From a virus (lineage: Duplodnaviria > Caudoviricetes), in the IMG/VR virus record IMGVR_UViG_3300029826_000003, positions 1 through 54,805 of that record: 54,805 nucleotides of DNA; one strand, written 5' to 3'. Of this stretch, positions 37,858 to 51,754 are shown piece after piece; positions within the stretch are counted from its first letter, which is position 1, and every line of letters starts with the position of its first letter. A program made the position numbers and the translations under genes. The notes beneath the pieces are model-generated. The model did not search any database. It was not told the origin of the DNA and worked only from the letters and a program-made list of their open reading frames with translations.

Positions 37858-38174
37858 CGCCAGATCCAGGCGCAGACCTTCTTGAAAAGATTATCGGAGC
37901 GTCCAGCGGCAGTCTGCTAGCCGTTATCCTGATCCCTCCGAGATCTCGCAAGGAGTTCGGGCGTCGCATCATATCCAGTATCATCGGCGGCATCGTCTTC
38001 GCTTCACCGGCTCGCGATATGGTTTCCTTTGCCAAAGACGGCGATGGGCTTCTTGCCGGCGCTTGTCTCGCTGGATTCAGCATATGGTGGGCAGGTGGCG
38101 CCTTGATCCGTATCATTCAGACGTGGAAGCCTCCCGTTCCGAATCCGGAGGAAGAGAAAGAAGCCGCTGAGTAA
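37854..38174 (+). CDS. holin-like membrane protein
   Basis: 3 TM segments; GASSGS...AG..AGF..WW..G. Confidence 0.6.
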   Translation: MTPDPGADLLEKIIGASSGSLLAVILIPPRSRKEFGRRIISSIIGGIVFASPARDMVSFAKDGDGLLAGACLAGFSIWWAGGALIRIIQTWKPPVPNPEEEKEAAE

Positions 38175-38379
38175 CCCGATCTCCTCTCGAGCGGAGAGGT
38201 TCATGACCACTGATCCTGTTCAAATTTCCCTGCTTGGCTTCGGCCGGCAGGGGATTTTTTCTATTTTTGCCTCCGAGAAGATCGAAGACGGTCATCACGG
38301 TGATCATGACAAGCAAGCACCCGATCGGCCAGACGATAGCGCCAATGGGACTCGCCAGGAAAAGGATGAAATTGAGCAT
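38113..38379 (-). CDS. small membrane protein
   Basis: Hydrophobic N-terminus; end of the leftward accessory arm. Confidence 0.4.
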   Translation of the reverse strand: MLNFILFLASPIGAIVWPIGCLLVMITVMTVFDLLGGKNRKNPLPAEAKQGNLNRISGHEPLRSRGDRVTQRLLSLPPDSEREASTSE

Positions 38380-38388
38380 CTGAGCATC

Positions 38389-38745
38389 CTATCTGGAATT
38401 GATTATATTGCCATACTCTGCCATCCAATCGGGGTGACTTGCTCGCCAATCTGACCAGCTCTCGTCAGTTAGCTTCCAGTCAATCCATTCTTGGATGTCA
38501 GGCTTCGGCGTAAACGGAGCGGCATTCGGATCGGCGCAGCGTTCGCACACGCCATTCCTTTCGCCATCCAGGTAGTTTGCTCGATGTTCGTCGCAGAAAA
38601 ACAGTCCGCAATATTCCATCGGATCTCCGCCACAAGCGTAATAAATCCCGCGATGGATACGTTTGTTGCAACTAGGGTGATCGCAAATCGCCGGAACGCA
38701 GTATCCCTGATCGCGTCTATTGTGCTCGTAACATGCGTATCCCAT
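38389..38745 (-). CDS. Cys-rich phage protein
   Basis: RDQGYCVPAICDHPSCN..I.RG..Y.CG; preceded by junction motif TTCCGAACAGGAGG. Confidence 0.75.
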   Translation of the reverse strand: MGYACYEHNRRDQGYCVPAICDHPSCNKRIHRGIYYACGGDPMEYCGLFFCDEHRANYLDGERNGVCERCADPNAAPFTPKPDIQEWIDWKLTDESWSDWRASHPDWMAEYGNIINSR

Positions 38746-38766
38746 GTCGGCCTCCTGTTCGGAATG

Positions 38767-39039
38767 CTAAAATCCGGTGTCAATTAGCAACCCTGGCGGC
38801 ATCCCCCATCCGCTTACGACCCAACCATGCTTTTCGCTTGACCACTCCATGTCATAGCAGTGATAAGTCGAATAGTCAGTAAGATCTGGCCATGAGCCAT
38901 CGTCTTCCTGATATGGGAATCGCCAGTCTACACCGATAAATAGACCACGCGAGCTGTCAATGCTGCCTATCTCGTCGGAAACCCCGCGCATGAATACCTT
39001 ATCACCAATCTGTGGTGTTCGAAGATCATCGTGATCCAT
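38767..39039 (-). CDS. hypothetical protein
   Basis: ORF in the leftward arm. Confidence 0.55.
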   Translation of the reverse strand: MDHDDLRTPQIGDKVFMRGVSDEIGSIDSSRGLFIGVDWRFPYQEDDGSWPDLTDYSTYHCYDMEWSSEKHGWVVSGWGMPPGLLIDTGF

Positions 39040-39040
39040 C

Positions 39041-39313
39041 TCAGTAGCACAAAGCACTCGTGATGTGCTGGTAGGCGTTCTTGAGATCGGATATCGCCTC
39101 TGCCAGTTCTTGTTTAGTCTCGGGGTAGTCCTCGATCGGAAAAAACTCGATATCGTCTATGACACGGCTGATGAGTGCGCGGATGTCCCTGAGTGCGTCG
39201 CGGCGAAAGTTGTTCATCTTTTTCCTCCTGCTCAGATCAAATTTCGCTTCAATCCACTCACGACAAAACGCCGCTCGCTCTTCGGGTGTAAGCCCGTCTT
39301 CATCGTTAGTCAT
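39041..39313 (-). CDS. hypothetical protein
   Basis: ORF with GAAGGAG RBS. Confidence 0.55.
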   Translation of the reverse strand: MTNDEDGLTPEERAAFCREWIEAKFDLSRRKKMNNFRRDALRDIRALISRVIDDIEFFPIEDYPETKQELAEAISDLKNAYQHITSALCY

Positions 39314-39315
39314 GG

Positions 39316-39537
39316 CTAATCTCCTTCGACAATAATGCCGAGCCGTCGTACGAGGTCTTCAGCGCTGCATCCGTCATCGAATGCGAAATCCTGACAATGA
39401 CCGCTCTCGTCATCCTCTCCAGTGATCTCGCGGGCACATCTGGCGATGTCATAGAGCATTTTCAGGTGCTGCATAACGAGCGCATGCAGGCCATGCAGAG
39501 CGAGCATTTCCGTCCTACTGATAGACTTCTTCAACAT
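39316..39537 (-). CDS. hypothetical protein
   Basis: Preceded by motif TCTGAATAGGAG. Confidence 0.65.
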   Translation of the reverse strand: MLKKSISRTEMLALHGLHALVMQHLKMLYDIARCAREITGEDDESGHCQDFAFDDGCSAEDLVRRLGIIVEGD

Positions 39538-39557
39538 CGTTACACTCCTATTCAGAT

Positions 39558-39857
39558 TCAATTGTCCCGCAGCGCGTCAAGACCGAGCATCTCCCGGCAC
39601 TGGGCGGCCGCCCACGGTAGATAGCGCTCGAACGCATCCACGAGGTCGCGGTGTCCATTTTCGTCGGTGCAAGCCATGAGAATGCCCAAGAGCGCCACTG
39701 TCATCCCGGCCATCGTCGCTTCCGCGTTATCCGCCGTGATAACGAAATTTCCATCCGCGAAGGCATCGACGACGCGACGGCGTATCTCTTCGGCTCTGGC
39801 GTCGAATGGCGATTCCGGGTTGAAATCCGGCATGTCTTTGAAACTCGGGAACTTCAT
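39558..39857 (-). CDS. hypothetical protein
   Basis: Preceded by motif TCTGGAATAGGAG. Confidence 0.7.
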   Translation of the reverse strand: MKFPSFKDMPDFNPESPFDARAEEIRRRVVDAFADGNFVITADNAEATMAGMTVALLGILMACTDENGHRDLVDAFERYLPWAAAQCREMLGLDALRDN

Positions 39858-39865
39858 GCCGGCTC

Positions 39866-40108
39866 CTATTCCAGAACACGCTCGAAGCGTCCGTCAAGAA
39901 ATTCCGATGCAGGGCGAACCCAGCACGTCCCGACCTTGCTATCGCGATATATGACGAGGGGCTCACCATCTTCCTCGCGGATACCGACGGCCTGTACCCA
40001 ATAGCGAGAACCACGATTTTTGTGCCGCCAATGGCTATTGATCGGTGCTGCGGTCCGCGTGGCTGCGACGCGCATCCGCGCTTTCTTCAAATCAAGTTCT
40101 GTATGCAT
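39866..40108 (-). CDS. DUF1653-like protein
   Basis: WRHK.RG..Y.V...EPLVIYR...WVRPASEFLDGRFERV; preceded by TTCTGAATAGGAGG. Confidence 0.75.
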   Translation of the reverse strand: MHTELDLKKARMRVAATRTAAPINSHWRHKNRGSRYWVQAVGIREEDGEPLVIYRDSKVGTCWVRPASEFLDGRFERVLE

Positions 40109-40120
40109 CTAACGTCCCTC

Positions 40121-40513
40121 CTATTCAGAATCCCGTGAAGCGCGCATCGCGGCGACTTTTTTGAGTGCTTCTTCCTTTATCTTCCGCATCTCGCGCCGCT
40201 GCTCTTCGACCGCAGCCCAATAGTGCGACTTGGCATACTCTCCATCAAAAGTGACGGGCATTTCGGGGTCATTAAGAAGCGCCTGTTTGACCGAAAGCGT
40301 ATGTATTACAACCTTCTTTCCAGTCGCTCGATATTCGGCCCCGATCATGTTGTAGTATTCGTTCGTAGGGTCTCGTTTCAGCACCTGAAGGCATCCGTCC
40401 CAATATGCGGGTTCGACATCAACAAAGTGGATATCCGTATTGCCGACGGAGACTTCTTTATCTCCGCTCGGGTCGGCCTCCTGCAGGGCCGCAATCAAAT
40501 CCCGTGTTTTCAC
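40121..40513 (-). CDS. hypothetical protein
   Basis: MKTRDLIAALQEADPSG...EPAYWDG; ends in Ser-Glu-stop inside the motif. Confidence 0.75.
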   Translation of the reverse strand: MKTRDLIAALQEADPSGDKEVSVGNTDIHFVDVEPAYWDGCLQVLKRDPTNEYYNMIGAEYRATGKKVVIHTLSVKQALLNDPEMPVTFDGEYAKSHYWAAVEEQRREMRKIKEEALKKVAAMRASRDSE

Positions 40514-40525
40514 GTTTGTCTCCCT

Positions 40526-40966
40526 TCAGGAATCGTCTGTCACTTCTGCCGGCTTGATCAGCCGGCGGTTGTCCTTCACCCCGGCATAGAGGGTCGCCAG
40601 CGCGATCGGCCGCATAGCCTCTTCCACGGTCATGCCGGCGATCATCTCGTTGTACATCTCAGCCTTTTTGCATGCGAGCTCGTAGGCTCCCGGACGAAGA
40701 TGAGCGCTGTACTGCCGATGCCTGCGCTTGTAACGGATCGTGTTGAAGAGAGGGTTCTCTGACTGGATAGCCTTCTTCTCTGCCTTCAGCGCCTCGGCAT
40801 GTGTGTCGAATTCGGTTGTTTCAGTTCGTGAGATACGATCTTTCCACGGCGAAAACGACGTGTGTTCGTAGGTTCGACGCGGCATATTTATGGTGCAACC
40901 CACGTATAGAAGAACGCCGTTCGCATCGAAATGGCGATAGAGGGTCGCCCTAACCTTGATCGGCAT
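40526..40966 (-). CDS. GIY-YIG nuclease
   Basis: LYRHFDANGVLLYVGCT...RR..EH...AL.AE..AI..ENPLFN. Confidence 0.85.
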   Translation of the reverse strand: MPIKVRATLYRHFDANGVLLYVGCTINMPRRTYEHTSFSPWKDRISRTETTEFDTHAEALKAEKKAIQSENPLFNTIRYKRRHRQYSAHLRPGAYELACKKAEMYNEMIAGMTVEEAMRPIALATLYAGVKDNRRLIKPAEVTDDS

Positions 40967-41126
40967 TCCGCTTGATCCTCTTCAGGCAACGTGACTTCAA
41001 CCGCTTGGTCAATTCACGCAGATTTTCAGCTGTTGCGTCTCGTGCTTTTTCGACCAGCTCAAGCTCTCGCCTTTCATTGTCATACAAGACTGAACGCCAT
41101 GCGGCGTGGATGCGTTTTTTCGTCAT
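40950..41126 (-). CDS. small basic helical protein (58 aa, not in the ORF track)
   Basis: Manual translation MTKKRIHAAWRSVLYDNERRELELVEKARDA...; AAGGA RBS. Confidence 0.55.
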   Translation of the reverse strand: MTKKRIHAAWRSVLYDNERRELELVEKARDATAENLRELTKRLKSRCLKRIKRNADQG

Positions 41127-41157
41127 GATCCTTGTTTATCAAATTGGTTCCCCTTCG

Positions 41158-41176
41158 TCTACCGAAAAAAGGTAGA
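41158..41176. promoter_or_regulatory. palindrome TCTACC-N7-GGTAGA, candidate operator
   Basis: Inverted repeat between divergent transcription units. Confidence 0.45.
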
Positions 41177-41184
41177 ACGTACTA

Positions 41185-41213
41185 TGGACAAGCGCAAGCG
41201 GATGCCGTATGTT
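41185..41213 (+). promoter_or_regulatory. sigma70 promoter upstream of the cassette-like array
   Basis: TGGACA-N17-TATGTT. Confidence 0.7.
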
Positions 41214-41254
41214 TTCTCGAAATTCAGTCTGAAAACCGCCGGAAGATATAAAAG

Positions 41255-41554
41255 ATGACAAATAGAGATTTATTGATAGGAACAATCGCGCAAATGCTGG
41301 CTCCTCGCCTTTTCGTCTTAAGTGGCGATAATCCTAGCGATATGGGCTTTCCGTTCGCCGACGACGAAGATGCATTCAAAGAAAGAATGTCTCGCCAGTT
41401 TGACCCAATCACCTTCTGGACAGAGAAGGCAACGGAGATTGCCGCGGCAATCGTCGACGTCATTTATGCAGAAGGAGACATCCCTGAAATAACTGATTCG
41501 CTGATCGAACGATCAGCGGCATTTGCCAAGAAATGGCAACCCGTCAGCGCCTGA
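41255..41554 (+). CDS. array gene 1, hypothetical
   Basis: First ORF after the promoter and motif. Confidence 0.65.
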   Translation: MTNRDLLIGTIAQMLAPRLFVLSGDNPSDMGFPFADDEDAFKERMSRQFDPITFWTEKATEIAAAIVDVIYAEGDIPEITDSLIERSAAFAKKWQPVSA

Positions 41555-41577
41555 TTCCAGAACCCGCCGAGGTCGAG

Positions 41578-41868
41578 ATGATATTCAGCGCAGAAGAACT
41601 CGAAAAGTGCAGATCAGCGATGGACAAACCGGCTCCGATAGAGGCTCTAAAGCTCATCGCCAGCGGCAGCGTTATTGTCGAACTCACGCACGACAAGCGC
41701 GATCTTTATCTCGACAGTGTCAATGGACGGCGCGTTCGAGACCCGGAATTTCCGAATCGCAAGATGCTGCTGAGCGGTGGATGGCCGCTATACCGCGCTG
41801 GAATGATCGATGATTTTTGTGTCGTGACAGATGCGGGCCGCAAAGTCCTCGCCGAATACGAGTCCTAG
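41578..41868 (+). CDS. array gene 2, hypothetical
   Basis: Motif and GAGG RBS before ATG. Confidence 0.7.
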   Translation: MIFSAEELEKCRSAMDKPAPIEALKLIASGSVIVELTHDKRDLYLDSVNGRRVRDPEFPNRKMLLSGGWPLYRAGMIDDFCVVTDAGRKVLAEYES

Positions 41869-41892
41869 AACCGCCCCGACCAGGAGACAACG

Positions 41893-42114
41893 ATGAAACT
41901 GACCGATGAACAACGCGATGAACTTGCAGCTCTCGCCAAGACGAACGACGCACTTGGCCACGCCTCGTTTCAGCATAAGCTAAATCGCGATTTCTACACG
42001 CCTCTAGCCGATGCTGGATTTGTCGAGATCGTGCACCCACCGCAGGGATTCGGCCGCGATGCATTCTTCGGTGTGACGATCACCGATGCTGGTCGCGCAG
42101 CGATTTCTAGATAA
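41893..42114 (+). CDS. array gene 3, small winged-helix-like
   Basis: LADAGFVE...ITDAGRAA. Confidence 0.7.
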   Translation: MKLTDEQRDELAALAKTNDALGHASFQHKLNRDFYTPLADAGFVEIVHPPQGFGRDAFFGVTITDAGRAAISR

Positions 42115-42128
42115 TCCCCGGAGGCACC

Positions 42129-42479
42129 ATGAATAACGCCGAATTCCGCAATGAACTCACGAAGATCATGCCGGGATACAAATGGACGGTTCACAAGACA
42201 TCGAACCCGGAAAGGCTGAAAGCGACCGGCATCCAGTCGAGCGGGTTCAACCGGCTCTCCACACTGCAGGTGACCCGGACGAAAAAGGGAAATGCAGCTT
42301 GGTATGATGTCAGATCTGCTCCGCATGGCACGAAATCGCCATGGGCGGCCGAGATCGGCAACGTGACCCTCGCCCGTGCCATGCGTGACCTTCAGACCCA
42401 CTACCAGCGGAAAGCGGCGAACTACCGCAAGCTGGCCGAACGACTCCAAAACGGACGCTCGACAGAGCAATCCAGCTAA
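42129..42479 (+). CDS. array gene 4, hypothetical
   Basis: GGAGG RBS; KIMPGYKWTVH...QSSGFNRLSTLQV. Confidence 0.75.
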   Translation: MNNAEFRNELTKIMPGYKWTVHKTSNPERLKATGIQSSGFNRLSTLQVTRTKKGNAAWYDVRSAPHGTKSPWAAEIGNVTLARAMRDLQTHYQRKAANYRKLAERLQNGRSTEQSS

Positions 42480-42499
42480 CTCACGGACAGGAGATCACC

Positions 42500-42799
42500 A
42501 TGAGTGGAATTGACGAGATCGCCGCCGAACGCCGCCGGCAGATCGAGGCCGAGGGGTGGACGCCGGAGCACGATGACGAGCACCGCAGCGGCGAGCTTGC
42601 GCAAGCCGCAGCCGCTTATGCACTCAATTGTTGTGACGACAGCGACGGACCGGATCTGAGATTGATGGGCGCTGAGATCTGGCCGTTCAATGATCTCTGG
42701 TGGAAGCCGAGGGACAGGCGCTACGACCTGGTTCGGGCCGGCGCCCTCATCGCCGCCGAGATCGACCGGCTCGATCGTCTCGAAGCAGGCAAGTCCTGA
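42500..42799 (+). CDS. array gene 5, widespread phage family (AERRRQIEAEGWTPEHDD)
   Basis: ERRRQ..EGWTPEHDD..GELA..WP..WWKP..LVRAGALI.AEIDRLDR. Confidence 0.85.
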   Translation: MSGIDEIAAERRRQIEAEGWTPEHDDEHRSGELAQAAAAYALNCCDDSDGPDLRLMGAEIWPFNDLWWKPRDRRYDLVRAGALIAAEIDRLDRLEAGKS

Positions 42800-42825
42800 T
42801 TTTCAAGAAACCACAGGAGGCCACG

Positions 42826-43038
42826 ATGCTGACCGTAAATATCGAGAAACGTGGCGACTTCTACATGGCTTGGCATGAGGATGCCCGCGACATCAAAAAG
42901 GCGCTTGGCGATATCGTTTTGACGACCGTCGGGGGTGCCGACACGATCGGCATTCCAGCCCATGCGTTGGAGAGCCATGTGGCTGCGCTTAATGCCGCTG
43001 GCATCAGCGTGAAGATCAACAGCAAAATCGATTCTTGA
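42826..43038 (+). CDS. array gene 6, stand-alone MutS domain I-like protein
   Basis: RGDFY....EDA....ALGDIVLT...GIPAHALESHVAALNAAGISV aligns by eye with the MutS N-terminus. Confidence 0.75.
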   Translation: MLTVNIEKRGDFYMAWHEDARDIKKALGDIVLTTVGGADTIGIPAHALESHVAALNAAGISVKINSKIDS

Positions 43039-43054
43039 AACCGCCGAGGTCAAT

Positions 43055-43723
43055 ATGCGCCAATTGAAAGTGCTGATAGGCGGGGAAGCAACACGCACGA
43101 TTGCGGCGGCATTCGAAGCGCACGGGCACTATGCCATGACGGCGGATTTCCGTCCCGCACAGCGTCCGGGACCGCACCATAAGGGCGACTGGGCCGACAT
43201 CGAGAACGACGGATGGGATCTGGCGATATTCCATCGCACGTGCACTTTCATGGCCAATTCGGGCGCCAAGCACATCTACGTTGACATGAAGAAAGCCAAC
43301 GGGCTCAACGAACAGCGCTGGCTTGAGCTGGGACGTCATGCGTGGTCTTTCTGGAACCACATGCAGACCTGTCCGGTTCGCTTCGCGGCATGGGAAAATC
43401 CCGTGATGATAGGCTATGCGCAATTGATGATCGGCAAGCCGGATCAGATCGTTCAGCCGTGGTGGTTTGCCGTAGATCCGAATGGGCCTGACAACGTCAA
43501 GAAAGCTACCGCGTGGTGGACACGGGGCGATCTTCCGAAGTTGAAACCGACAGGCATCCTTGACGGATCTACCGCGCGCGACGAGGTCTTCCGCATGGCG
43601 CCAACCGCCGATCCGGAAGTCAGACGCATGCAGCGATCGAACTTCACGCCGGGCCACGCTGAGGCAATTGCGGATCAGTGGGGCTCATTCGTTCAACAGC
43701 AGATCGCCGCCGAAGCTGCTTAG
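43055..43723 (+). CDS. array gene 7, minimal C5-cytosine methyltransferase-like protein
   Basis: WDLAIFHRTC, WENPV, IVQPWWF, KKATAWW..LPKL. Confidence 0.75.
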   Translation: MRQLKVLIGGEATRTIAAAFEAHGHYAMTADFRPAQRPGPHHKGDWADIENDGWDLAIFHRTCTFMANSGAKHIYVDMKKANGLNEQRWLELGRHAWSFWNHMQTCPVRFAAWENPVMIGYAQLMIGKPDQIVQPWWFAVDPNGPDNVKKATAWWTRGDLPKLKPTGILDGSTARDEVFRMAPTADPEVRRMQRSNFTPGHAEAIADQWGSFVQQQIAAEAA

Positions 43724-43745
43724 TCCAGAAACCGCCGAGGTTGAG

Positions 43746-44153
43746 ATGCAGGTGAACCGATACATCAGAGACAAGGCAATGGATCATGTCGATCATGCCC
43801 TTGGCCGCCCTGTCGACCCGACGGTCGAGAGCTATCGAAATTATTTTGCGACCAGTGTCGACGGCAACATAGCCGCTGAGTTTCGCGCTTCGCCAAATTG
43901 GATCGAAGGCATCCGTCAGGGTGACATGGTCTGGTTTCACGTTAGCGACCAGGGGCGCGCTGCGCTTCGCGATCATCTACGCGAGATCGGCGACGAGCAC
44001 CAACTGTTCACCGTTTCATGGGGCGGATACGACATGCCGCAGGTTGCTGCCAGCGCCAGCAAAGCGCGTTACGCCAGATGGAGCGCCTTGTGCGACGTCA
44101 TTGACGTTCCGTTCATGACGTTCGCGGCGACTGCGCGCGTGCGCCTCGCCTAA
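43746..44153 (+). CDS. array gene 8, hypothetical
   Basis: HALG...SYRNYF...FHVSDQGRAAL. Confidence 0.75.
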   Translation: MQVNRYIRDKAMDHVDHALGRPVDPTVESYRNYFATSVDGNIAAEFRASPNWIEGIRQGDMVWFHVSDQGRAALRDHLREIGDEHQLFTVSWGGYDMPQVAASASKARYARWSALCDVIDVPFMTFAATARVRLA

Positions 44154-44183
44154 TTCCGCAAACCCACCCGCCAGGAGACCGAC

Positions 44184-44393
44184 ATAACCGATAGCTTGGG
44201 CGAAGCCCTTCCCAAAAAAATGCAAGAAATCCGCGAGACCTACATTCCGGCCTACCAGAGCATCGGTCCGGCTGGAGGTTTTGCAATTGCCATGATGAAT
44301 CAGGCGTTGACGCGCGCGGAAAAGGCGATGATCGAAGGCGATATAGCCGCGATGATCTGTGCCTATAAAGATCTCTGCGAGTTCAAACTATGA
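44184..44393 (+). CDS. array gene 9; ATA in place of the expected ATG, possibly silenced
   Basis: CAGGAG RBS then ATA ACC GAT AGC TTG GGC GAA GCC; LGEALP...YQSIGPAG. Confidence 0.6.
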   Translation: MTDSLGEALPKKMQEIRETYIPAYQSIGPAGGFAIAMMNQALTRAEKAMIEGDIAAMICAYKDLCEFKL

Positions 44394-44411
44394 CTTTTCC
44401 AGAAACCGCCG

Positions 44412-44510
44412 CACCAATACGAGCACCATCCATGCGGCACCAATCTGCTCGACGCCAACCAGGCATATGAGATGGTGTGCTACATGCTCGCCGGACTTCC
44501 GGCCGAGTGA
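44412..44510 (+). pseudogene. headless gene fragment between two junction motifs
   Basis: HQYEHHPCGTNLLDANQAYEMVCYMLAGLPAE-stop directly after GAAACCGCCG; no RBS or start codon. Confidence 0.55.
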
Positions 44511-44538
44511 TCCAGAAACCGCCGACTAGGAGGCTCCC

Positions 44539-44835
44539 ATGCGTTTGTCAGTTCCCACCAAGTTGGATGAACATCATCGCCGATGGCTCAAAGCGTACTG
44601 TCCATGCGACAACGGTGTGCATGTATTTGATCCGGACGACGATGAGTTTGGCGGCCGGACCGTGCAGAACTTTCCGGGCACGGATCTTACTGTTTTCAAT
44701 GAACTTTCCTCTGCCGGGGATGGCGATGATTTCGACCTAATCTGTGACCTCATGGTCAACGGGGACTTGGTCGATACCGCGCTCATTCGCCGCCAGGACT
44801 TGGCGCTTATCGAACGTCGCCTGCAATCTGTCTGA
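44539..44835 (+). CDS. array gene, hypothetical
   Basis: Motif and AGGAGG RBS. Confidence 0.7.
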   Translation: MRLSVPTKLDEHHRRWLKAYCPCDNGVHVFDPDDDEFGGRTVQNFPGTDLTVFNELSSAGDGDDFDLICDLMVNGDLVDTALIRRQDLALIERRLQSV

Positions 44836-44847
44836 AAACAGCCGGAG

Positions 44848-45066
44848 GTGAGCATGTGGCCTTATGACCAACAAGACAAAGACCTGCACCGTCTGGTCGT
44901 TGAGCGTATCACGGACGCGATCGAGAGAGTGACGCAACTTGCCGAAACGCCGGAGCAACATGCCATGATCATCATGGCTGCTTTGTGTCGATGTGCCGGC
45001 ATGGCCGGTGCTCTCATCGCTGTCGAGATCGACCGGCTCGATCGTCTCGAAGCAAGCAAGTCCTGA
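44848..45066 (+). CDS. array gene, chimera carrying the 3' end of gene 5
   Basis: C-terminus AGALIAVEIDRLDRLEASKS duplicates 42736-42799. Confidence 0.6.
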   Translation: MSMWPYDQQDKDLHRLVVERITDAIERVTQLAETPEQHAMIIMAALCRCAGMAGALIAVEIDRLDRLEASKS

Positions 45067-45092
45067 TTTTCAAGAAACGGTCGGAGGGCAAT

Positions 45093-45332
45093 ATGCGAGA
45101 TCTTCAAACTGACCACGATCCGAGCCACCCGCTCACCCGGGCGCTGCGCGAGGTCGTTCAGAAGAACGGGCTGACCGGAGCCGTTATGCTGACGTTCACG
45201 AAGGATCGCGTTGGCGTGAATTCCTCGTCTCCGGGCGTCGAATTCGGCGCGATCATGCAGCGGTTGGCTGACGCTATTCTGTTCGCCTTTGATCGCGGTG
45301 ACTTCGATAGCGTGTTGCCGCCAGAACAGTGA
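45093..45332 (+). CDS. array gene, hypothetical
   Basis: Motif and GGAGG RBS. Confidence 0.7.
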   Translation: MRDLQTDHDPSHPLTRALREVVQKNGLTGAVMLTFTKDRVGVNSSSPGVEFGAIMQRLADAILFAFDRGDFDSVLPPEQ

Positions 45333-45364
45333 CTTTTCTCACAACCGCCGACCAGGAGGCAAAG

Positions 45365-45622
45365 ATGATCACAGACCAGCAGATCGATCGACTGAGCGCA
45401 TGCACTTGCGGCGGAACTGCCGAACCGGCCTCGCGTCGAATTTCATCGCTGCCGAATGCTACGCGGGTGGATGAAGCGAAATTTGATCTGAAGAGGAGCC
45501 ATCAAATGCCGACGATTGTGCAGGGAACCCGCGTCTATCCAGAACCTGACGGCTGGCTTGATCCAGCAAAGATTAACAAACCAGCCTGCTATGGACGCCG
45601 ATGCGACTGGCTATGTGTCTGA
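45365..45622 (+). pseudogene. probably two degenerate array genes read as one ORF
   Basis: Internal TCTGAAGAGGAG motif (45487-45498) and a second ATG at 45506. Confidence 0.4.
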
Positions 45623-45677
45623 CGTCGGCCGGCCCGACCTTCCGAATTCAATCAAGCGCTCTGAATAGGAGGCCAGA

Positions 45678-45998
45678 ATGGCTAATGACGAACCCTTGAA
45701 GGTCGGATTTCATCCACCACTGCAATGTGCCCGCGGCCGAACCGACTGCCGTTCTCTGGCGCAGCTTATTTCGAGCCGCGATGAGCCTACATTCGTCTGT
45801 TGTGGGGAAGTTGACGAAGGCAAAACACCTGTTCCGGAGGACCGCTGGTCATTCTGTATCAACACGATGAACGCCGGTCACGGCAAGGGCTACAATTTCA
45901 GGGCATTCGTCGACCGACGCGACATGTCGCACATGAGCGCCGTGCTTAGCATGGCGCTCGCGATGGTCATCCCGCTCGACTATGACGATTCTGAATAG
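45678..45998 (+). CDS. array gene, Cys-containing hypothetical
   Basis: Flanked by TCTGAATAGGA motifs; ends SE-stop. Confidence 0.7.
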   Translation: MANDEPLKVGFHPPLQCARGRTDCRSLAQLISSRDEPTFVCCGEVDEGKTPVPEDRWSFCINTMNAGHGKGYNFRAFVDRRDMSHMSAVLSMALAMVIPLDYDDSE

Positions 45999-46008
45999 GA
46001 AGACTTTA

Positions 46009-46206
46009 ATGCCGCGCACTTGCGTTCGATCTATAGCGACTTTTCGGCTTTCGAGCACGAACACCGACGAGCTGCGTCTTGAATTCTCGTGCTCCACTGA
46101 CGCATACAAATTGGCCAGGCGCATTTTGCAGGAAGCATTAAATCACGAAGCCGGCGGTGCATTTTCCGTTCGTCCGATCTACGGCCGTGCCGATTTTTCC
46201 GAATAG
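46009..46206 (+). CDS. array gene, hypothetical
   Basis: Flanked by motifs; ends SE-stop. Confidence 0.55.
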   Translation: MPRTCVRSIATFRLSSTNTDELRLEFSCSTDAYKLARRILQEALNHEAGGAFSVRPIYGRADFSE

Positions 46207-46215
46207 GAGGTCAGC

Positions 46216-46404
46216 GTGACCGAGCAATGCCACGACTGCAATTTCTACCGTGTTCGCACCGACGAGCCAGGGCGCAACAGTCAAGGATGGTTCGGCTACT
46301 GCGTTCGCTTCCCACCCATTTTCAAGGAAGACCGCGCCATCAACGATGGTTGGCCGAACGTTCATGGTCAGTCGTGGTGCGGCGAGTTTAAACGTTCTGA
46401 ATAG
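46216..46404 (+). CDS. array gene, small Cys-rich protein
   Basis: CHDCNFY...GYCVRFPP...WP.V....WCGEF; ends SE-stop. Confidence 0.75.
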   Translation: MTEQCHDCNFYRVRTDEPGRNSQGWFGYCVRFPPIFKEDRAINDGWPNVHGQSWCGEFKRSE

Positions 46405-46475
46405 GAGGATGTGGAGATTTTCCGGCCTGAATGATCCCCCATGTTGCGCGCGCCATTCGCATGATTTCGTCTCTG

Positions 46476-47030
46476 TCACTCATGGCCAGATCCCTTCTGT
46501 CCGATACGGGCGAGGAAGATGCGGATATCAGCAATCAATGCTTCTCCACCAGCCATAATCTTTTCCTGACGCCGAGCCGATCCGCCCTCCCGTTCTTCGA
46601 TTCCAGCATAAAAATACTGATGCAAAGAACCTGGAACTACGCGTAAGAGACAGGCTGCCTCCTCTAGCAGTGCGGTTAGGCGAGAGAGTTCAGCATTCTT
46701 TTCTTTGATTATGGACAGATGTGCATCTTTGCCAGATGCTTCCCCGATCTCCGCACGTTCTGCTCGCTCGCTAAAAGCGGTGAGGGTGGAGACAGAATAG
46801 ACCGGCTCTATTTCGAATTCCAGGAAATTGCTCCGAGGGTTCATCTGTTTTTCGCCATACTCCCATGATGACCATTCCGTTGAGCCACCAACTCCAGGTT
46901 TGCACCGATGACGAATGCGCCATGCTACTGGCACACCGATATCATCTTGCAGTGCGACGGAGAGAGTGAATTCCTTCCGTTCTTCCCGATCACGTTCGAT
47001 GGCGTATTGGTCTTTGGCTTCCTGGTTCAT
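46476..47030 (-). CDS. hypothetical protein
   Basis: GGAG RBS; PVAWR...W..WEY. Confidence 0.65.
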   Translation of the reverse strand: MNQEAKDQYAIERDREERKEFTLSVALQDDIGVPVAWRIRHRCKPGVGGSTEWSSWEYGEKQMNPRSNFLEFEIEPVYSVSTLTAFSERAERAEIGEASGKDAHLSIIKEKNAELSRLTALLEEAACLLRVVPGSLHQYFYAGIEEREGGSARRQEKIMAGGEALIADIRIFLARIGQKGSGHE

Positions 47031-48097: not shown

Positions 48098-48539
48098 TTT
48101 CGCGCCTCTTTTGGCGGTATGCCCGCCACCATGCGGCATCACGTATTTGTCTTTTCCTGTCCCTCCTGCACGACCGGCATTCGCGAGTTCCGTTTGGTCT
48201 AATCAGCGTGTTTTCAGGCGTGAAAGGATGCCCATGAATGCAGTTCGTCTGTGCTTTTTTCTTGCTGTCACGTGTGGCGTGGCAGACACTGCAGACGGGT
48301 TGCACGTCATAGTGATGTTGCGCCGAATAACCGAGATAATGATCATAGGAATGTCTCGGCTCACCTTCTCTCCAAATATGCCCGCAGTCTGAGCACGGCA
48401 GGGAATTCGGATGCGGGCGTCTTCCGCTCCTGACCTCGACGTTAATACGTTGTCGCGCCTGGATTTTGTCGCCAGCGCGAGGTTGGTTTGGTCTTGGCCC
48501 TGGCCTATCGGTCCACTTGATTCCAGTCTCCTTGCCCAT
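48090..48539 (-). CDS. HNH-like endonuclease with a DUF5131-like N-terminal peptide
   Basis: CSDCG...DH..GY...VCSVCH; CIHGHPFTPENT...CRSC. Confidence 0.7.
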   Translation of the reverse strand: MGKETGIKWTDRPGPRPNQPRAGDKIQARQRINVEVRSGRRPHPNSLPCSDCGHIWREGEPRHSYDHYLGYSAQHHYDVQPVCSVCHATRDSKKKAQTNCIHGHPFTPENTLIRPNGTRECRSCRRDRKRQIRDAAWWRAYRQKRRENG

Positions 48540-48934
48540 CAGTTTTTCTTTCCCTCATAGATCGCTCTAGGTGGCAACGGCGTCTTCGGCCTACGTTCCT
48601 TGCGATCGAAGCCGCGGGATTTCATCGTCGGCGGCTTGCGGATTCCAAGCGCTTTTGCCTTTTTGCGGTTCGACGTGGAACGCTCCGTCGCTTCCTTATT
48701 CGTCTTCACGTCATGAGCGAGCTTTAGAACTGCCTGGAGATTGCTTTCACGGTTCTCGCCGCCTTTCCAAAGCGCCTTGATGTGGTCGAATTCTATCCTG
48801 TCTCCGTCCTTGAATTCAATGCCGGTTATGGCGCATCGGTTGTTCTGGCGATCGATGATACGCAGCTTGCAGGACCGCGGAGGTTTGCTGTCATCCGTCT
48901 TGCCAATCCATTCCTTGACGGATCTCATGGCCAT
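48539..48934 (-). CDS. HNH endonuclease
   Basis: EFDHIKALWKGGENRESNLQ...H..KT. Confidence 0.85.
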   Translation of the reverse strand: MAMRSVKEWIGKTDDSKPPRSCKLRIIDRQNNRCAITGIEFKDGDRIEFDHIKALWKGGENRESNLQAVLKLAHDVKTNKEATERSTSNRKKAKALGIRKPPTMKSRGFDRKERRPKTPLPPRAIYEGKKN

Positions 48935-49152
48935 TTCCTCCCAAGGCTCGCTGCCAATGCCCGATTTGTATTTTCGCGCAGTTCACCTTCGAGATGACGA
49001 TAGGCGTGATGGGCCTTCTTCTCCCGGTCGCGCCTGGCAATAAGTGCCTTGCGGCGCTCCTCGTATCGTCTAGCGACCGGTGCAAACTTCCTGCGGTCCA
49101 TGAACCGTGTGTAGGCTCCGAGGATTTCTCGGAGGATATGGTCAAGGGTCAT
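48925..49152 (-). CDS. hypothetical protein
   Basis: Coupled ORF. Confidence 0.6.
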   Translation of the reverse strand: MTLDHILREILGAYTRFMDRRKFAPVARRYEERRKALIARRDREKKAHHAYRHLEGELRENTNRALAASLGRKWP

Positions 49153-50048
49153 GACAGAACACGGAAGCCAGCCGCATTGCGATGGCCGCCTCCTCCGTTT
49201 GCCTTGGCAATCTCCGACACGTCGACGCGGTCATCGGTGCTTCGGAGTGAATAGGTGATGCCCTCTCTATTTTGGATCACCGCGACAGCGAACGGCGCGT
49301 CCGGGTACATCGCCAAAAGCGTGTTGCACGTGTCCGACACGAAGTCGTAAGGGCATGCGTAGGTAACGGCGACCCCTTGGTGTCCATGGAATTCCTGGCG
49401 CCCTGCGGTCTCACAGATCGCCTTGATGCGCTGATCGTAGAAGCGCTTGATCGCCGCGGCTTCTCCGAGAAACCGTTCCGGATCTTCGCTATAGAGAGAG
49501 GCCGCTGCGTCCCATTGGCTGAAATCACGGTCAAGTGATCGAAGGTACATGCTGACGAGCTTTGTATCCGGTCGATCAAAGCGCCATAGATCGCGGTCCT
49601 CGACGGCGAGGATGAGTGGCGGAATGCTTTCGCCGGGGAACGCAAAATCCCAAAGCATCCTGGCACCGGAACGGTTCATATCGAACTCGACCAGGACGCG
49701 TTCGCGCCAAGTCCCCGCCATACGGGCGAAGCATCGTTCGATGTTGTCGACCGTCGGCCTGACGATCTGGTGAAGACCTGAGAGCTTTTCCTGCGCCGTC
49801 TTGTGATGATCGAGCATTACGATGCGACCGCCGCGATCGACGACGTCTTCGCATTGCTCTGGCGAGATCGAGAAGTCCGCGATCAGGATGTCCCTTCCGC
49901 TCGGGTCAAACACCGAAATTTCCCGGCCATAATTGCTCGGCAGGTATTCGAGTGCGTTGCCCCATTTCTTGTGCGCGGCCCACGCCGCAGCGAAACCGTC
50001 GTCGCAGTTGTCGTGGTAGATCAGGACGTCGGGTTGATATGGCATCAC
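49149..50048 (-). CDS. DHH/DHHA1 phosphoesterase
   Basis: YHDNCDDGF, DFS, LDHH, DRDLW, GGGGHRNAAGF. Confidence 0.92.
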   Translation of the reverse strand: MMPYQPDVLIYHDNCDDGFAAAWAAHKKWGNALEYLPSNYGREISVFDPSGRDILIADFSISPEQCEDVVDRGGRIVMLDHHKTAQEKLSGLHQIVRPTVDNIERCFARMAGTWRERVLVEFDMNRSGARMLWDFAFPGESIPPLILAVEDRDLWRFDRPDTKLVSMYLRSLDRDFSQWDAAASLYSEDPERFLGEAAAIKRFYDQRIKAICETAGRQEFHGHQGVAVTYACPYDFVSDTCNTLLAMYPDAPFAVAVIQNREGITYSLRSTDDRVDVSEIAKANGGGGHRNAAGFRVLS

Positions 50049-50118
50049 AGTCTCCTCATCCGATACAATTCAGCCTTGGCATCCTCTGCCGTGGCATCGC
50101 CCTTGATGACTTTGCGTG

Positions 50119-50538
50119 TCATGCTGCCTCCAGGAATGCGAGCGGATCAAAGCCAATGGCATCTGCCAGCTTTTCCATGGCGCGGTCCATATATGCCTTG
50201 AATGCATCACCATCCATCGCGTCAAAAGCCGTACTATCTGTTGTGACGAACGGCTTTCCGTCGAGGCCATATGTGACCGTTATGTAGCCGCAAGCACGCT
50301 TCAATGCGTCATGCAAATGTTCCGCTGTAGGCCACTTGTCTGTCGCGTTCACGACTTCCGTCAGAGCTTTCCAATATGTGCGATGCTGCGGAAGACTTCT
50401 CTTCGACATCTTCGTGACGCGGAACTCTGAGCCCATCGGCGCATTGATCAGAAGCTCGGCATCAAACGACGACACCGGTTGCAGTCCTTTCGGCGTCTTG
50501 CGGACGATGATTGCCAGTGTTCCGCGCTTCTTGCTCAT
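50119..50538 (-). CDS. DUF1367/NinB-like recombination accessory protein
   Basis: RSLPQHRTYW...STAFDAMD...F..YMD. Confidence 0.7.
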   Translation of the reverse strand: MSKKRGTLAIIVRKTPKGLQPVSSFDAELLINAPMGSEFRVTKMSKRSLPQHRTYWKALTEVVNATDKWPTAEHLHDALKRACGYITVTYGLDGKPFVTTDSTAFDAMDGDAFKAYMDRAMEKLADAIGFDPLAFLEAA

Positions 50539-51254
50539 GCAGCGTCCAACGTGCTTTCTGGCAGACGAGAGAGGCGATCGGCAAAAGCATCCTTGAACGC
50601 GTAGTATTCGTTATCCGGCAGGCTCTCGATCTGCGTTTTCTGATTGCCGGCCCATTTCAGAAGGTCTCCCTTCGTCAAAAGGCGCTGCATGTTCTCGTAG
50701 AGCGCCGCATAGACGTGTTCGATGTCTTTTGTGTCTGTCAAGCGTTCTCCAGAAGCGCGCGGTTTACGGGGCTTCTGTGCGGGCTTCGAAGCCGGTTCTT
50801 CGATACCATCAGAAACATTCGCCTGAGCCTTGTCATAGAGGGCGAGACCAAACTGGTTTCCGAAGGTCATCAATGCCCGCTTTCGCGCATCGGATTCGGC
50901 TTCCTTGATAGCGCTTTCGTGGGCGAGGCCAAGATCCACATCAATGCCGTGGCCAGATCCCATGCCTTCACGCTCAATGCCTCCGACCTTGACGCATACC
51001 TTTGCGATGTAGGTCACCCCCCATCCATCGCGTTCGTACTGGCCGCGGCCGATCTTGCGTTCATGTTCCGCCACACATCTGCATTCGACCGTGTGGCTGT
51101 CCCATGCATCGAAGCCGAATATACGGTTCGCTTCGGCGATCGCGTGCCAGCTCTCGATATAGCTCAGCGTTGATTTGCCCTGTTCGCGCGTCTTGACATG
51201 GATACGATTGAGCGGCTTTGCGAGTTCTGCTTTCTGATCTTCCGTAAACATCAT
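50535..51254 (-). CDS. Rad52/Sak-family single-strand annealing recombinase
   Basis: LSYIESWHAIAEANRIFGFDAW...REGMGSG...AIKEAESDARKRALMTFGNQFGLALYDK. Confidence 0.93.
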   Translation of the reverse strand: MMFTEDQKAELAKPLNRIHVKTREQGKSTLSYIESWHAIAEANRIFGFDAWDSHTVECRCVAEHERKIGRGQYERDGWGVTYIAKVCVKVGGIEREGMGSGHGIDVDLGLAHESAIKEAESDARKRALMTFGNQFGLALYDKAQANVSDGIEEPASKPAQKPRKPRASGERLTDTKDIEHVYAALYENMQRLLTKGDLLKWAGNQKTQIESLPDNEYYAFKDAFADRLSRLPESTLDAA

Positions 51255-51754
51255 TTCACCCTGATCGTTAGCGTTTCTTCACCAAGCGACAGTTCGGCAC
51301 CGGGGACTTTTTCACCGGCCTCAAGCGCCTTCTTCAGCGCCGTCTTGTCGGCTTCCTTCTTGAGCCGATAAAATCCCTGCGGAAGTTCATCGACATTCAG
51401 GACGTTGACAGATGCACGGGGCTTGCTGATCGAAAGTGTCGCTCCGGTAAACATGAGCTTGTCCAGATCGGCGGAAAGCATGATCGACCGTATGAGCGAT
51501 TTCATGGCCGCTTCCTTGCGCTCGAAACGTCCGCGTCTGGCGTGAATGTCAGCCTCATAATCCTTCAGTCCAGAGGCAAATGCTTTTGCTGTCTGCGCCT
51601 CTTCCAGAGCCTTTCCGATCACTTTCATGATGTCGGTTTGACCCTCTAAAACATCCAGGCGCAGAAGTTCATCTTCGGCAAGATCCGGGTTGTCGGAAAT
51701 GAGTTTCGCGATTTCTGCCTTCAGGAATCCTGCGTTCATGTAAAGACTGCTCAT
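51251..51754 (-). CDS. Gp157-family protein
   Basis: DKTALKKALEAGEKVPGAEL...LTIR; adjacent to the recombinase. Confidence 0.85.
   Translation of the reverse strand: MSSLYMNAGFLKAEIAKLISDNPDLAEDELLRLDVLEGQTDIMKVIGKALEEAQTAKAFASGLKDYEADIHARRGRFERKEAAMKSLIRSIMLSADLDKLMFTGATLSISKPRASVNVLNVDELPQGFYRLKKEADKTALKKALEAGEKVPGAELSLGEETLTIRVK

What the first reader, a model, noticed from the sequence alone, without database searches (positions are those of the whole stretch)
41185..46408. Integron-like gene-cassette array in a phage, with no integron integrase or attC sites
Seen: one promoter (TGGACA-N17-TATGTT) is followed by about 17 short, unrelated, co-oriented genes on the strand opposite to both flanks. 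Nearly every gene junction carries the same motif between stop codon and RBS: TCTGAAAACCGCCGG (~41228), TTCCAGAACCCGCCGAGG (41555), TCCTAGAACCGCCCCG (41863), TTCAAGAAACCACAGGAGG (42802), TTCTTGAAACCGCCGAGG (43032), TCCAGAAACCGCCGAGG (43724), TTCCGCAAACCCACCCG (44154), TTCCAGAAACCGCCG (44397), TCCAGAAACCGCCGACTAGGAGG (44511), TCTGAAAACAGCCGGAGG (44831), TTCAAGAAACGGTCGGAGG (45069) and TTCTCACAACCGCCGACCAGGAGG (45336), with weaker copies near 42105 and 42471. The motif has a TTCnnGAA palindromic core upstream of the Shine-Dalgarno, so the RBS does not explain it. I did not see it in the structural operon. Inference: these are exchange junctions that let single-gene cassettes be gained, lost and reordered behind one promoter. 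The alternative is a protein-binding start-associated regulatory element.
Basis: partly seen in the sequence, partly recalled or inferred. Interest (0 to 1): 0.9.

Follow-up and report, generated by a model that had tools for sequence, protein, structure and literature searches.

The report
Repeated junction box in phage accessory operon
A short, one-directional DNA box sits between almost every pair of small accessory genes in this uncultured phage; it looks like a gene-by-gene control signal that also acts as a weak point where genes are swapped, and it is not an integron.

Summary
A 16-nt box (consensus TTCCAGAAACCGCCG, invariant T3, C4, A9, C11) lies between stop codon and Shine-Dalgarno at 12 of 18 junction positions of a + strand operon (41255-46404). 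In leave-one-out scoring, 7 of 12 copies beat every other position in the 54.8-kb phage. Two more junctions are decayed copies. The last four carry a second box, TCTGAATAGGAGG, which also occurs in the divergent leftward operon (38113-41126). Neither box occurs in the structural or replication operons.

It is not an integron. The record has no tyrosine or serine recombinase, and the junctions have no hairpin-forming repeats and no conserved structure. Homologues of four cassettes sit in unrelated mobile elements, without the box.

Best reading (about 0.5): a reiterated protein-binding box at each cistron junction, working like mycobacteriophage stoperators or start-associated sequences. Its copies also serve as crossover points. 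Evidence for crossovers: a 76-nt duplication ending inside the box, two chimeric junctions, an orphan copy beside an ORF-less remnant, and a metagenome contig joining gene 5 to gene 11. The phage encodes its own recombination module.

No relative carrying the box could be fetched, so the exchange model remains untested.

The parts
41185..41213 (+). sigma-70-like pattern TGGACA-N17-TATGTT, candidate promoter of the rightward array
   Evidence: 9 of 12 matches. Such matches are not above chance in this region (5 found, 5.9 expected), so position is the only argument.
41226..41241 (+). type A box copy 1, in the leader. It starts 13 nt after the -10-like hexamer and has no gene upstream.
   Evidence: leave-one-out score 19.0; no background position at or above it
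41255..46404 (+). Array of 16 small ORFs (g1-g9, g11-g17; 62-222 aa) plus an ORF-less remnant.
Coordinates:
- g1 41255-41554
- g2 41578-41868
- g3 41893-42114
- g4 42129-42479
- g5 42500-42799
- g6 42826-43038
- g7 43055-43723
- g8 43746-44153
- g9 44196-44393
- g11 44539-44835
- g12 44854-45066
- g13 45093-45332
- g14 45365-45622
- g15 45678-45998
- g16 46009-46206
- g17 46216-46404
   Evidence: -: translations.
- families. g5 matches several PHROGs, g6 matches MutS domain I, g7 matches phrog_757, g8 matches phrog_13561.
- g2 has 9 homologues.
- g4 has 11 loci.
- The rest have no family.
- My crude codon-usage caller did not recover g14 or g16 and truncated g15.
41554..41569 (+). type A box, junction g1/g2
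   Evidence: leave-one-out 17.9, 0 background
41861..41876 (+). type A box, junction g2/g3; the TAG stop lies inside the box
   Evidence: leave-one-out 11.8, 6 background positions at or above
42801..42816 (+). type A box, junction g5/g6
   Evidence: leave-one-out 12.3, 4 background
43031..43046 (+). type A box, junction g6/g7; the TGA stop lies inside the box
   Evidence: leave-one-out 20.3, 0 background
43722..43737 (+). type A box, junction g7/g8
   Evidence: leave-one-out 21.3, 0 background
44153..44168 (+). weak type A box, junction g8/g9
   Evidence: leave-one-out 6.7, 72 background positions at or above
44396..44411 (+). orphan type A box. It is the best-scoring copy, follows the g9 stop directly, and has no Shine-Dalgarno or start codon after it.
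   Evidence: 23.2; leave-one-out 22.2
44412..44508 (+). ORF-less remnant between two box copies
   Evidence: no start-to-stop ORF preceded by an RBS.: no significant similarity to g5 or to any PHROG.
44509..44524 (+). type A box, in front of g11
   Evidence: leave-one-out 15.0, 0 background
44829..44844 (+). type A box, junction g11/g12; the TGA stop lies inside the box
   Evidence: leave-one-out 14.6, 0 background
45068..45083 (+). type A box, junction g12/g13. Chimeric: the left half resembles 42801 and the right half resembles 43031.
45335..45350 (+). type A box, junction g13/g14. Chimeric: the left flank resembles 44396 and the right flank resembles 41861.
42736..42812 (+). copy 1 of a direct repeat: the 3' end of g5, its stop codon and the first 11 nt of the box
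   Evidence: D1: 87% identity over the 94-nt reference. By eye the sequences diverge after ...TTTTCAAGAAAC.
45003..45079 (+). copy 2 of the same repeat: the 3' end of g12, its stop codon and the first 11 nt of the box
   Evidence: D1; the last 20 aa of g5 and g12 are 90% identical and the rest of the two proteins is unrelated
45660..45672 (+). type B box TCTGAATAGGAGG, in front of g15
   Evidence: (D4)
45990..46002 (+). type B box (TCTGAATAGGAAG), junction g15/g16
   Evidence: (D4)
46198..46210 (+). type B box (TCCGAATAGGAGG), junction g16/g17
   Evidence: (D4)
46396..46408 (+). terminal type B box after g17, with no credible gene behind it
   Evidence: (D4)
38113..41126 (-). Divergent leftward operon of about 10 small genes, including a GIY-YIG nuclease (40526-40966) and a DUF1653 protein (39866-40108). 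Type B boxes lie at its junctions: exact GAATAGGAG beginning at 40126, 39871 and 39553, and looser copies at 39236 and 38763.
49149..51754 (-). The phage's own recombination module: a DHH/RecJ-like phosphoesterase, a NinB/Orf mediator, a recombinase and a Mu Gam-like protein. These are candidate enzymes for crossovers between box copies.

Best explanation
The box is a cis-acting recognition site for one sequence-specific factor, most likely a phage- or host-encoded protein. It is repeated at every cistron junction of a hyperplastic accessory-gene island, so all the small genes are switched together.

I favour action on DNA as an orientation-dependent roadblock or operator, as with the stoperators of cluster A mycobacteriophages. 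Action on the mRNA just 5' of the ribosome-binding site, as proposed for the start-associated sequences of cluster K mycobacteriophages, is nearly as likely.

As a by-product, the 16-35 nt of near-identity at each junction gives the phage's own recombination functions short homologies. Whole cistrons are therefore duplicated, deleted and replaced at these points, much as PeSL repeats do in T4-type phages.

Shown: the box, its strand and position specificity, its restriction to the island, and rearrangement end points in it.
Inferred: that a trans-acting factor exists, the level at which it acts, and that the phage recombinase does the joining.
For: 1. Position-specific conservation. T3, C4, A9 and C11 are invariant in 12 of 12 copies. 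Columns 8, 10 and 12-16 are kept in 10-11 of 12. Columns 1, 2 and 5-7 vary freely. This is the pattern of a recognition site, not of uniform decay from a recent duplication.

2. Location and strand. All 12 copies are on the coding strand, inside spacers that make up about 10% of the array. None of comparable score occurs elsewhere in the 54.8 kb.

3. Points favouring recognition independent of translation start:
- One copy starts 13 nt downstream of the -10-like hexamer.
- The orphan copy at 44396 has no SD or start codon, yet it is the best match.
- The distance from box to start codon varies from 8 to 16 nt, and is 27 nt to the TTG start assumed for g9.

4. A shared half-box, T[TC]C-N1-2-GAA, lies within 40 nt upstream of 14 of 26 island genes against 2 of 67 other genes (the pattern was chosen post hoc).

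5. Initiation regions carrying the box are slightly less structured: mean MFE -8.8 against -12.0 kcal/mol, p=0.026.

6. Signs of recombination at the box:
- The D1 duplication ends inside the box.
- Junctions 45068 and 45335 have left and right flanks that match different partners.
- There is an orphan box next to an ORF-less remnant.
- A terminal box follows the last gene.
- A contig of run X4 joins 42698-42802 to 44583-44845 with 276 other letters between them.

7. The phage encodes NinB/Orf, a recombinase, a Gam-like protein and a RecJ-like protein.

8. Published precedents, from passages I read: stoperators (PMC9283540), SAS/ESAS (PMC3203893, PMC12699233) and PeSL (PMC2839356, abstract and section 13).
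Against: - No trans-acting factor was identified. g2, which I tested as a candidate, gives a confident model (pLDDT 89.6) with no DNA-binding fold and no PDB neighbour at all.
- No relative with the box could be fetched, so conservation across phages, the strongest argument for function in the SAS and stoperator cases, is missing.
- The box is confined to one operon, whereas stoperators are spread through the genome.
- Sequence alone cannot separate action on DNA from action on RNA.
- The folding difference is small, and the accessibility measure is not significant (p=0.14).
- The flank-similarity null shuffles away the SD and ATG, so right-flank scores are inflated.
- Breakpoints at gene boundaries are also expected from selection for intact genes.
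Confidence: 0.5

Rival explanations
1. Dedicated exchange junction. The box exists mainly to let single-gene cassettes be gained, lost and reordered behind one promoter. This would happen either through short-homology recombination between co-infecting relatives or through a nuclease that cuts at the box.
For: - Rearrangement end points lie in or at the box: D1, the chimeric junctions and the orphan box with its remnant.
- The array is bounded by boxes at both ends, giving 18 junction positions for 16 genes plus a remnant.
- The X4 contig has different content between g5 and g11, and its left break is at 42802, 3 nt after the g5 stop.
- Each cassette homologue found elsewhere is a singleton in an unrelated element.
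- A GIY-YIG nuclease gene lies next to the array, and the phage has its own recombination module.
Against: - No tyrosine or serine recombinase is present in a record rated 100% complete.
- The conserved core is about 9-10 nt with variable flanks, which is short for homologous exchange and not what homology-driven exchange would preserve.
- Homologues of g2, g4, g7 and g8 in other elements lack the box, so cassettes do not travel with it.
- No excised or reordered form was seen in the source run X1. Its only contig breaks are at the D1 repeat.
- A boundary at a stop codon is what selection for intact genes would give anyway.
Confidence: 0.18
2. No dedicated factor. The junctions are copies of one good translation-initiation leader: an unstructured, A/C-rich stretch plus SD. 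It has spread through the operon by duplication and gene conversion (concerted evolution). It is kept only because it gives adequate ribosome loading after an upstream stop codon.
For: - Junctions fall into sub-families that share flanks (D2, D5, D9, D11, D13, D14).
- The type B box contains the SD itself and a stop codon.
- Structural genes of the same phage use a related GAAAGGA-type SD next to stop codons.
- Initiation regions with the box are somewhat less structured.
- Two unrelated phage contigs also repeat their own SD-spacer string, in 2-3 copies.
Against: - The ACCGCCG part contributes nothing obvious to ribosome binding, yet it is the best-conserved stretch.
- The flanks of most copies are unrelated while the core is kept. 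That argues for selection on the core rather than recent copying.
- The orphan copy without SD or start is intact.
Confidence: 0.2
3. RNA-level element that pairs with another RNA, either ribosomal RNA as a translational enhancer or a phage antisense RNA.
For: The only argument is position just 5' of the SD, on the transcribed strand.
Against: - No conserved structure is found (0 pairs in 11 junctions), and there is no Rfam match.
- No strong reverse-complement copy exists anywhere in the phage.
- Variants in the core are mostly A/C transversions, which would not preserve pairing.
- Spacing to the SD is not fixed.
- The host is unknown, so complementarity to its rRNA was not tested.
Confidence: 0.05

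Closest known systems
Start-associated sequences (SAS/ESAS) of cluster K mycobacteriophages (Pope et al. 2011, PMC3203893; PMC12699233)
   Same: Both are short asymmetric repeats in one orientation, present in about 10-20 copies. Both are restricted to the non-structural part of the genome and lie a few bases upstream of start codons of unrelated small genes. The upstream stop codon is sometimes inside the repeat. In both cases the function is still unproven. The type B box, like the SAS, contains the SD and the string ATAGGAG.
   Different: - The sequence is different, and so are the host phylum and the phage lineage.
- The type A core lies 5' of the SD rather than containing it, and its distance to the start codon varies.
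- There is no ESAS-like 17-bp inverted repeat.
- SAS are conserved across many sequenced relatives. Here no relative could be examined.
Stoperators of cluster A mycobacteriophages (L5 repressor sites; PMC9283540, passages read)
   Same: Both are asymmetric sites of 13-16 bp found at a promoter-proximal position and in short intergenic spaces. In both, orientation follows the direction of transcription.
   Different: - Stoperators are scattered over the whole genome and are bound by a known immunity repressor of a temperate phage.
- Here the box is confined to one operon.
- No repressor of that family and no integrase were found.
PeSL (promoter-early stem-loop) cassettes of T4-type phages (Arbiol et al. 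2010, PMC2839356; PMC4122927 seen only in the search listing)
   Same: Both are repeated intergenic regulatory motifs concentrated in a hyperplastic region of small ORFans, running from the upstream stop codon to the downstream SD. In PeSLs, recombination between copies causes insertion, deletion and replacement of single genes.
   Different: - PeSLs are about 50-100 nt and consist of a sigma-70 promoter plus a stem-loop terminator.
- The box here has neither.
- Mini-circles were not looked for.
Integron gene-cassette arrays
   Same: Both have one upstream promoter-like site followed by many co-oriented, unrelated, mostly promoterless small genes separated by a recurring sequence.
   Different: - There is no IntI or any tyrosine recombinase.
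- The recurring sequence is 16 nt, not palindromic and not foldable, and it sits at the 5' side of genes next to the SD.
- It is not carried by homologous genes elsewhere.

Membership tests
Integron | IntI-type tyrosine recombinase next to the array | tested here: not met
   PF00589 search of the whole record found 0 matches, while the controls matched in 14 of 14 genomes. PF00239 also found 0.
Integron | attC sites: imperfect inverted repeats of about 57-141 bp that fold as single strands, at the 3' end of each cassette | tested here: not met
   RNAalifold on 11 junctions gave 0 pairs. No local inverted repeats were found at junctions. Spacers are only 9-55 nt, plus one of 145 nt.
Integron | Cassettes carry their recombination site with them when found elsewhere | tested here: not met
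   Homologues of g2, g4, g7 and g8 in 16 other loci have no box copy next to them.
PeSL (T4-type phages) | sigma-70-like promoter inside each repeat | tested here: not met
   The promoter scan finds one + strand site in the array region, at 41185, and none at the junctions.
PeSL (T4-type phages) | stable stem-loop (terminator or attenuator) inside each repeat | tested here: not met
   0 consensus pairs. The + strand terminator-like sites in the array, at 44962 and 45747, are inside genes.
PeSL (T4-type phages) | Indel and replacement breakpoints between close relatives fall in the repeats | tested here: inconclusive
   There is one contig of run X4 with its left break at 42802, and intragenomic end points lie in the box. 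No full relative was available.
Start-associated sequences (cluster K mycobacteriophages) | 13-bp asymmetric repeat GGGATAGGAGCCC (up to 2 mismatches) containing the SD, 3-7 bp before the start codon | tested here: not met
   The sequence is different. The type B box contains the SD and lies 5-12 nt before starts. The type A core lies 5' of the SD. This is an analogue, not a member.
Start-associated sequences (cluster K mycobacteriophages) | single orientation, restricted to non-structural genes, in front of unrelated gene families | tested here: met
Stoperator system (cluster A mycobacteriophages) | asymmetric site at a promoter and in short intergenic spaces, with orientation tied to the direction of transcription | tested here: met
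   The copy at 41226 starts 13 nt after the -10-like hexamer. Eleven more copies lie in spacers, and all are on the coding strand.
Stoperator system (cluster A mycobacteriophages) | cognate monomeric repressor (HTH plus stoperator domain) and sites spread over the genome | tested here: not met
   Sites are confined to 41226-45350. The HTH proteins found (1965-2276, HTH_36; 2577-2777, Cro/YdaS-like) are short and were not tested for binding. No search was made with a stoperator-domain model.

The most novel reading that the evidence does not exclude
A recombinase-free cassette system. A 16-nt regulatory box repeated at every cistron boundary doubles as the preferred crossover or breakage point. 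There the phage's own single-strand-annealing module, or the adjacent GIY-YIG nuclease, swaps single accessory genes between co-infecting relatives. This would be a phage-built functional analogue of an integron that needs no integrase and no attC.
Probability: 0.2. Interest if true: 0.7.

Novelty: new variant of a known kind. Interest (0 to 1): 0.42.

Why it matters
Reiterated junction motifs in phage accessory regions are known from mycobacteriophages (SAS, stoperators) and T4-type phages (PeSL). The function of SAS is still open after 15 years.

This is an independent example in an unrelated phage, probably of an alphaproteobacterium. It has a clean two-part architecture: a half-box, with or without ACCGCCG, followed by the SD. 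It also carries visible rearrangement scars at the box.

That would give a second system for asking two questions. Do such boxes co-regulate anti-defence or accessory genes? Does their repetition drive the single-gene mosaicism of phage genomes?

It does not reveal a new class of mobile element.

Tried and rejected
Searches for relatives carrying the box all failed.
- IMG/VR protein scans with g7, g8, g4, the 47318-48142 gene, the 46476-47030 gene and the DHH gene gave loci that share one gene each. L082 shares two, not adjacent. None has a box array.
- The exact 16-mer scan gave 24 single hits, about the number I estimate for chance.
I scored 119 new loci (1.06 Mb) and none had an array.
- Both metagenome scans gave nothing useful.
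- The one genome-contig scan, with the major capsid protein, found a 50.6-kb contig of 65% G+C in a MAG. It shares structural genes only.
- The phage collection has no close relative.
- Plasmid hits from Paracoccus and Brucella pseudintermedia share one gene each and have no box.

Other results that led nowhere:
- No RNA holder was listed among the sequencing runs, so expression and transcript ends could not be examined.
- Parts of the array without cover in runs X3-X5 are not used as evidence.
- I suspected that the remnant at 44412-44508 is a truncated g5 paralogue. This is not supported (BLASTP E=0.12 over 8 aa; no PHROG).
- I suspected that g2 and g3 are winged-helix regulators. This is not supported: Pfam E=0.24 for g3, and the g2 model has no PDB neighbour at E<=0.001.
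- I considered per-gene promoters, Chi-like sites, CcrM (GANTC) sites and complementarity to 16S rRNA from the sequence alone, then dropped them. The first three do not explain the strict spacer location. The last was not testable without a host.

Tools and material not available:
- Supplementary tables of the SAS papers were not seen.

Full report
WHAT THE WINDOW IS.
The window is a complete IMG/VR virus record of 54,805 bp, linear, rated 100% complete by CheckV. It encodes:
- a P22-like portal, a large terminase, a major head protein and a tape-measure-like protein on the + strand;
- a recombination module on the - strand at 49149-51754: DHH/RecJ-like, NinB/Orf, recombinase and Mu Gam-like;
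- Cro/YdaS-like and HTH_36 proteins near the left end;
- several DNA methyltransferase-like genes.

It has no tyrosine or serine recombinase. No cultured phage is close; the best portal match is 46%. Homologues of gene 2 occur in Paracoccus, Xanthobacter and Rhizobium, so the host is probably an alphaproteobacterium, but this is not shown. The DNA is held by marine-sediment metagenome runs and, in 100% identical pieces, by a soil run of another study.

THE OBSERVATION.
The + strand stretch 41255-46404 holds 16 small ORFs of 62-222 aa and one ORF-less remnant. Both flanks are on the - strand.

Aligned, they give a 16-nt box. T3, C4, A9 and C11 are invariant. Columns 8, 10 and 12-16 are kept in 10-11 of 12 copies. 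Columns 1, 2 and 5-7 are free.

In a leave-one-out test, 7 of 12 copies outscore every one of about 109,000 other positions on both strands. Four have 3-6 competitors and one (44153) is weak. With the full matrix the best hit outside the array scores 13.9 and lies inside a gene. All copies are on the coding strand, between the stop codon and the SD. In four of them the stop codon lies inside the box.

A SECOND BOX AND A WIDER ISLAND.
The last four junctions carry TCTGAATAGGAGG instead (D4). Its core GAATAGGAG occurs six times in the record: three at these junctions and three on the - strand at junctions of the divergent leftward operon 38113-41126. It occurs nowhere else.

Both boxes share a left half, T[TC]C-N1-2-GAA. 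This half lies within 40 nt upstream of 14 of 26 genes of the island 38113-46404, against 2 of 67 other genes (the pattern was chosen post hoc).

Type A therefore looks like type B with ACCGCCG set between the half-box and the SD. Genes of the structural and replication operons mostly overlap (ATGA-type junctions) or use a GAAAGGA-type SD.

WHAT IT IS NOT.
It is not an integron:
- there is no recombinase;
- there are no foldable repeats (RNAalifold gives 0 pairs on 11 junctions; no local inverted repeats);
- there is no Rfam family;
- the spacers are too short for attC.

It is not a PeSL: there is no promoter and no stem-loop at the junctions.

The TGGACA-N17-TATGTT promoter is only a pattern match at chance frequency.

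THE CASSETTES.
- g5 belongs to a widespread phage family. Some RefSeq records annotate its relatives as Lar-type restriction alleviation proteins.
- g6 matches MutS domain I.
- g7 matches a PHROG labelled methyltransferase.
- The others have no family. Apart from the shared tail of g5 and g12, the genes are unrelated to each other.
- Homologues of g2, g4, g7 and g8 were found in 16 other phage, prophage or plasmid loci. Each time the homologue is the only shared array gene, except in L082, which also has a distant g5 homologue on the other strand. None has the box beside it.

Single genes do move among elements, but they do not carry this box.

EVIDENCE THAT REARRANGEMENTS END IN THE BOX.
1. 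A 76-nt direct repeat (42736-42812 and 45003-45079) covers the last 20 codons of g5 and g12, the stop codon and the first 11 nt of the box. After that the two junctions differ.
2. Junction 45068 has the left flank of 42801 (score 28) and a right flank like 43031 (11.5). Junction 45335 has a left flank like 44396 (10) and a right flank like 41861 (15.5). The shuffled maximum is 11. The right-flank null does not preserve the SD and ATG, so those scores are generous.
3. The best-scoring copy, 44396, directly follows the g9 stop. After it come 97 nt without an RBS-led ORF, and then another copy.
4. A type B copy follows the last gene with nothing credible behind it.
5. In run X4 one contig (1477 nt, depth 18) matches 42698-42802, then has 276 other letters, then matches 44583-44845. 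This is a relative in which g5 and g11 are not separated by g6-g9, and the left break lies 3 nt after the g5 stop. The contigs are short and were laid at 80% likeness, so this is a single weak comparative point.

The source run X1 shows no alternative joints. Its contigs break only at the 76-nt repeat.

MECHANISM.
The pattern of invariant and free columns argues for selection on a recognition site rather than shared recent ancestry or homology tracts.

Three facts argue that recognition does not depend on the ribosome-binding geometry:
- one copy starts 13 nt after the -10-like hexamer;
- the orphan copy is intact;
- the spacing to the start codon varies.

Together with strict co-orientation with transcription, they match the published description of stoperators (PMC9283540, passages).

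The position immediately 5' of the SD in 11 of 12 copies, and the SD-containing type B box, match the description of SAS (PMC3203893, passages). By a 2025 survey the function of SAS is still unverified (PMC12699233, passages).

Initiation regions with the box are slightly less structured, which is weak support for a role in ribosome access.

I therefore commit to a reiterated protein-binding box that co-regulates the cistrons (confidence about 0.5). I prefer action on DNA over action on RNA. Recombination between copies is a by-product, as shown for PeSLs (PMC2839356, abstract and section 13), and is plausibly carried out by the phage's own recombination genes.

A dedicated exchange function (0.18) and a factor-free, homogenised leader (0.2) remain open.

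LIMITS.
- No RNA data exist for this phage.
- The coding status of g14-g17 rests on the RBS-start geometry only.

The verdict on function is inference from one genome.

Noticed in passing
window 42826-43038 (+), gene 6: This 70-aa protein matches Pfam MutS domain I, the mismatch-binding domain, above the curated cut-off (31 bits, E=3e-7). A free-standing MutS-I fragment in a phage accessory operon could be a decoy or modulator of host mismatch repair.
   Followed up: no
window 41578-41868 (+), gene 2: It is conserved (54-71% identity) in Paracoccus, Xanthobacter and Rhizobium records and in metagenomes. The AlphaFold2 model from 10 sequences is confident (pLDDT 89.6, pTM 0.78), but it has no PDB neighbour at E<=0.001. 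This may be a new small fold.
   Followed up: partly
window 42524-42618, inside gene 5: A stretch of about 90 nt is 77-86% identical at the DNA level to genes in many Pseudomonas phages and plasmids and in a Cupriavidus plasmid. That is unusually high for such distant hosts. Some records call the gene a Lar-family restriction alleviation protein.
   Followed up: no
window 41158-41176: A perfect 6-bp inverted repeat, TCTACC-N7-GGTAGA, lies just upstream of the -35-like hexamer, between the divergent operons (read). It is a candidate operator for the 58-aa protein encoded at 40950-41126 (-).
   Followed up: no
window 40526-40966 (-) and 48539-48928 (-): Free-standing GIY-YIG and HNH nuclease genes flank the accessory island. 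These are possible homing endonucleases.
   Followed up: no
window 41330-41558, 46705-46934, 51055-51490: A soil metagenome run from a different study and year (X5) holds contig pieces with no differences from this marine-sediment phage (records 26-29).
   Followed up: no
window 44184-44198, start of gene 9: The SD of gene 9 is followed at the usual distance by ATA, in frame with the TTG start I assumed 12 nt downstream. The gene may have lost its ATG.
   Followed up: no
L076 5990-6380 and L077 5990-6380: Two unrelated phage contigs that carry a gene 4 homologue repeat their own SD-spacer-start string, GGAGAGCAGCCATG, in front of neighbouring genes in 2-3 copies. Stereotyped junctions may be common.
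   Followed up: partly
G001:C285:187-995 (locus L101): Four exact copies of GAAACCGCCG lie on one strand, three of them 372 nt apart, in a short contig of the MAG that holds the capsid relative. The locus was fetched but not analysed.
   Followed up: no
L102 (Paracoccus sp. TOH plasmid p2, 62836-66707): The gene 2 homologue sits in another run of 13 small co-oriented hypothetical genes next to a VapBC pair and a UmuC-like gene. This array has no shared junction motif.
   Followed up: partly
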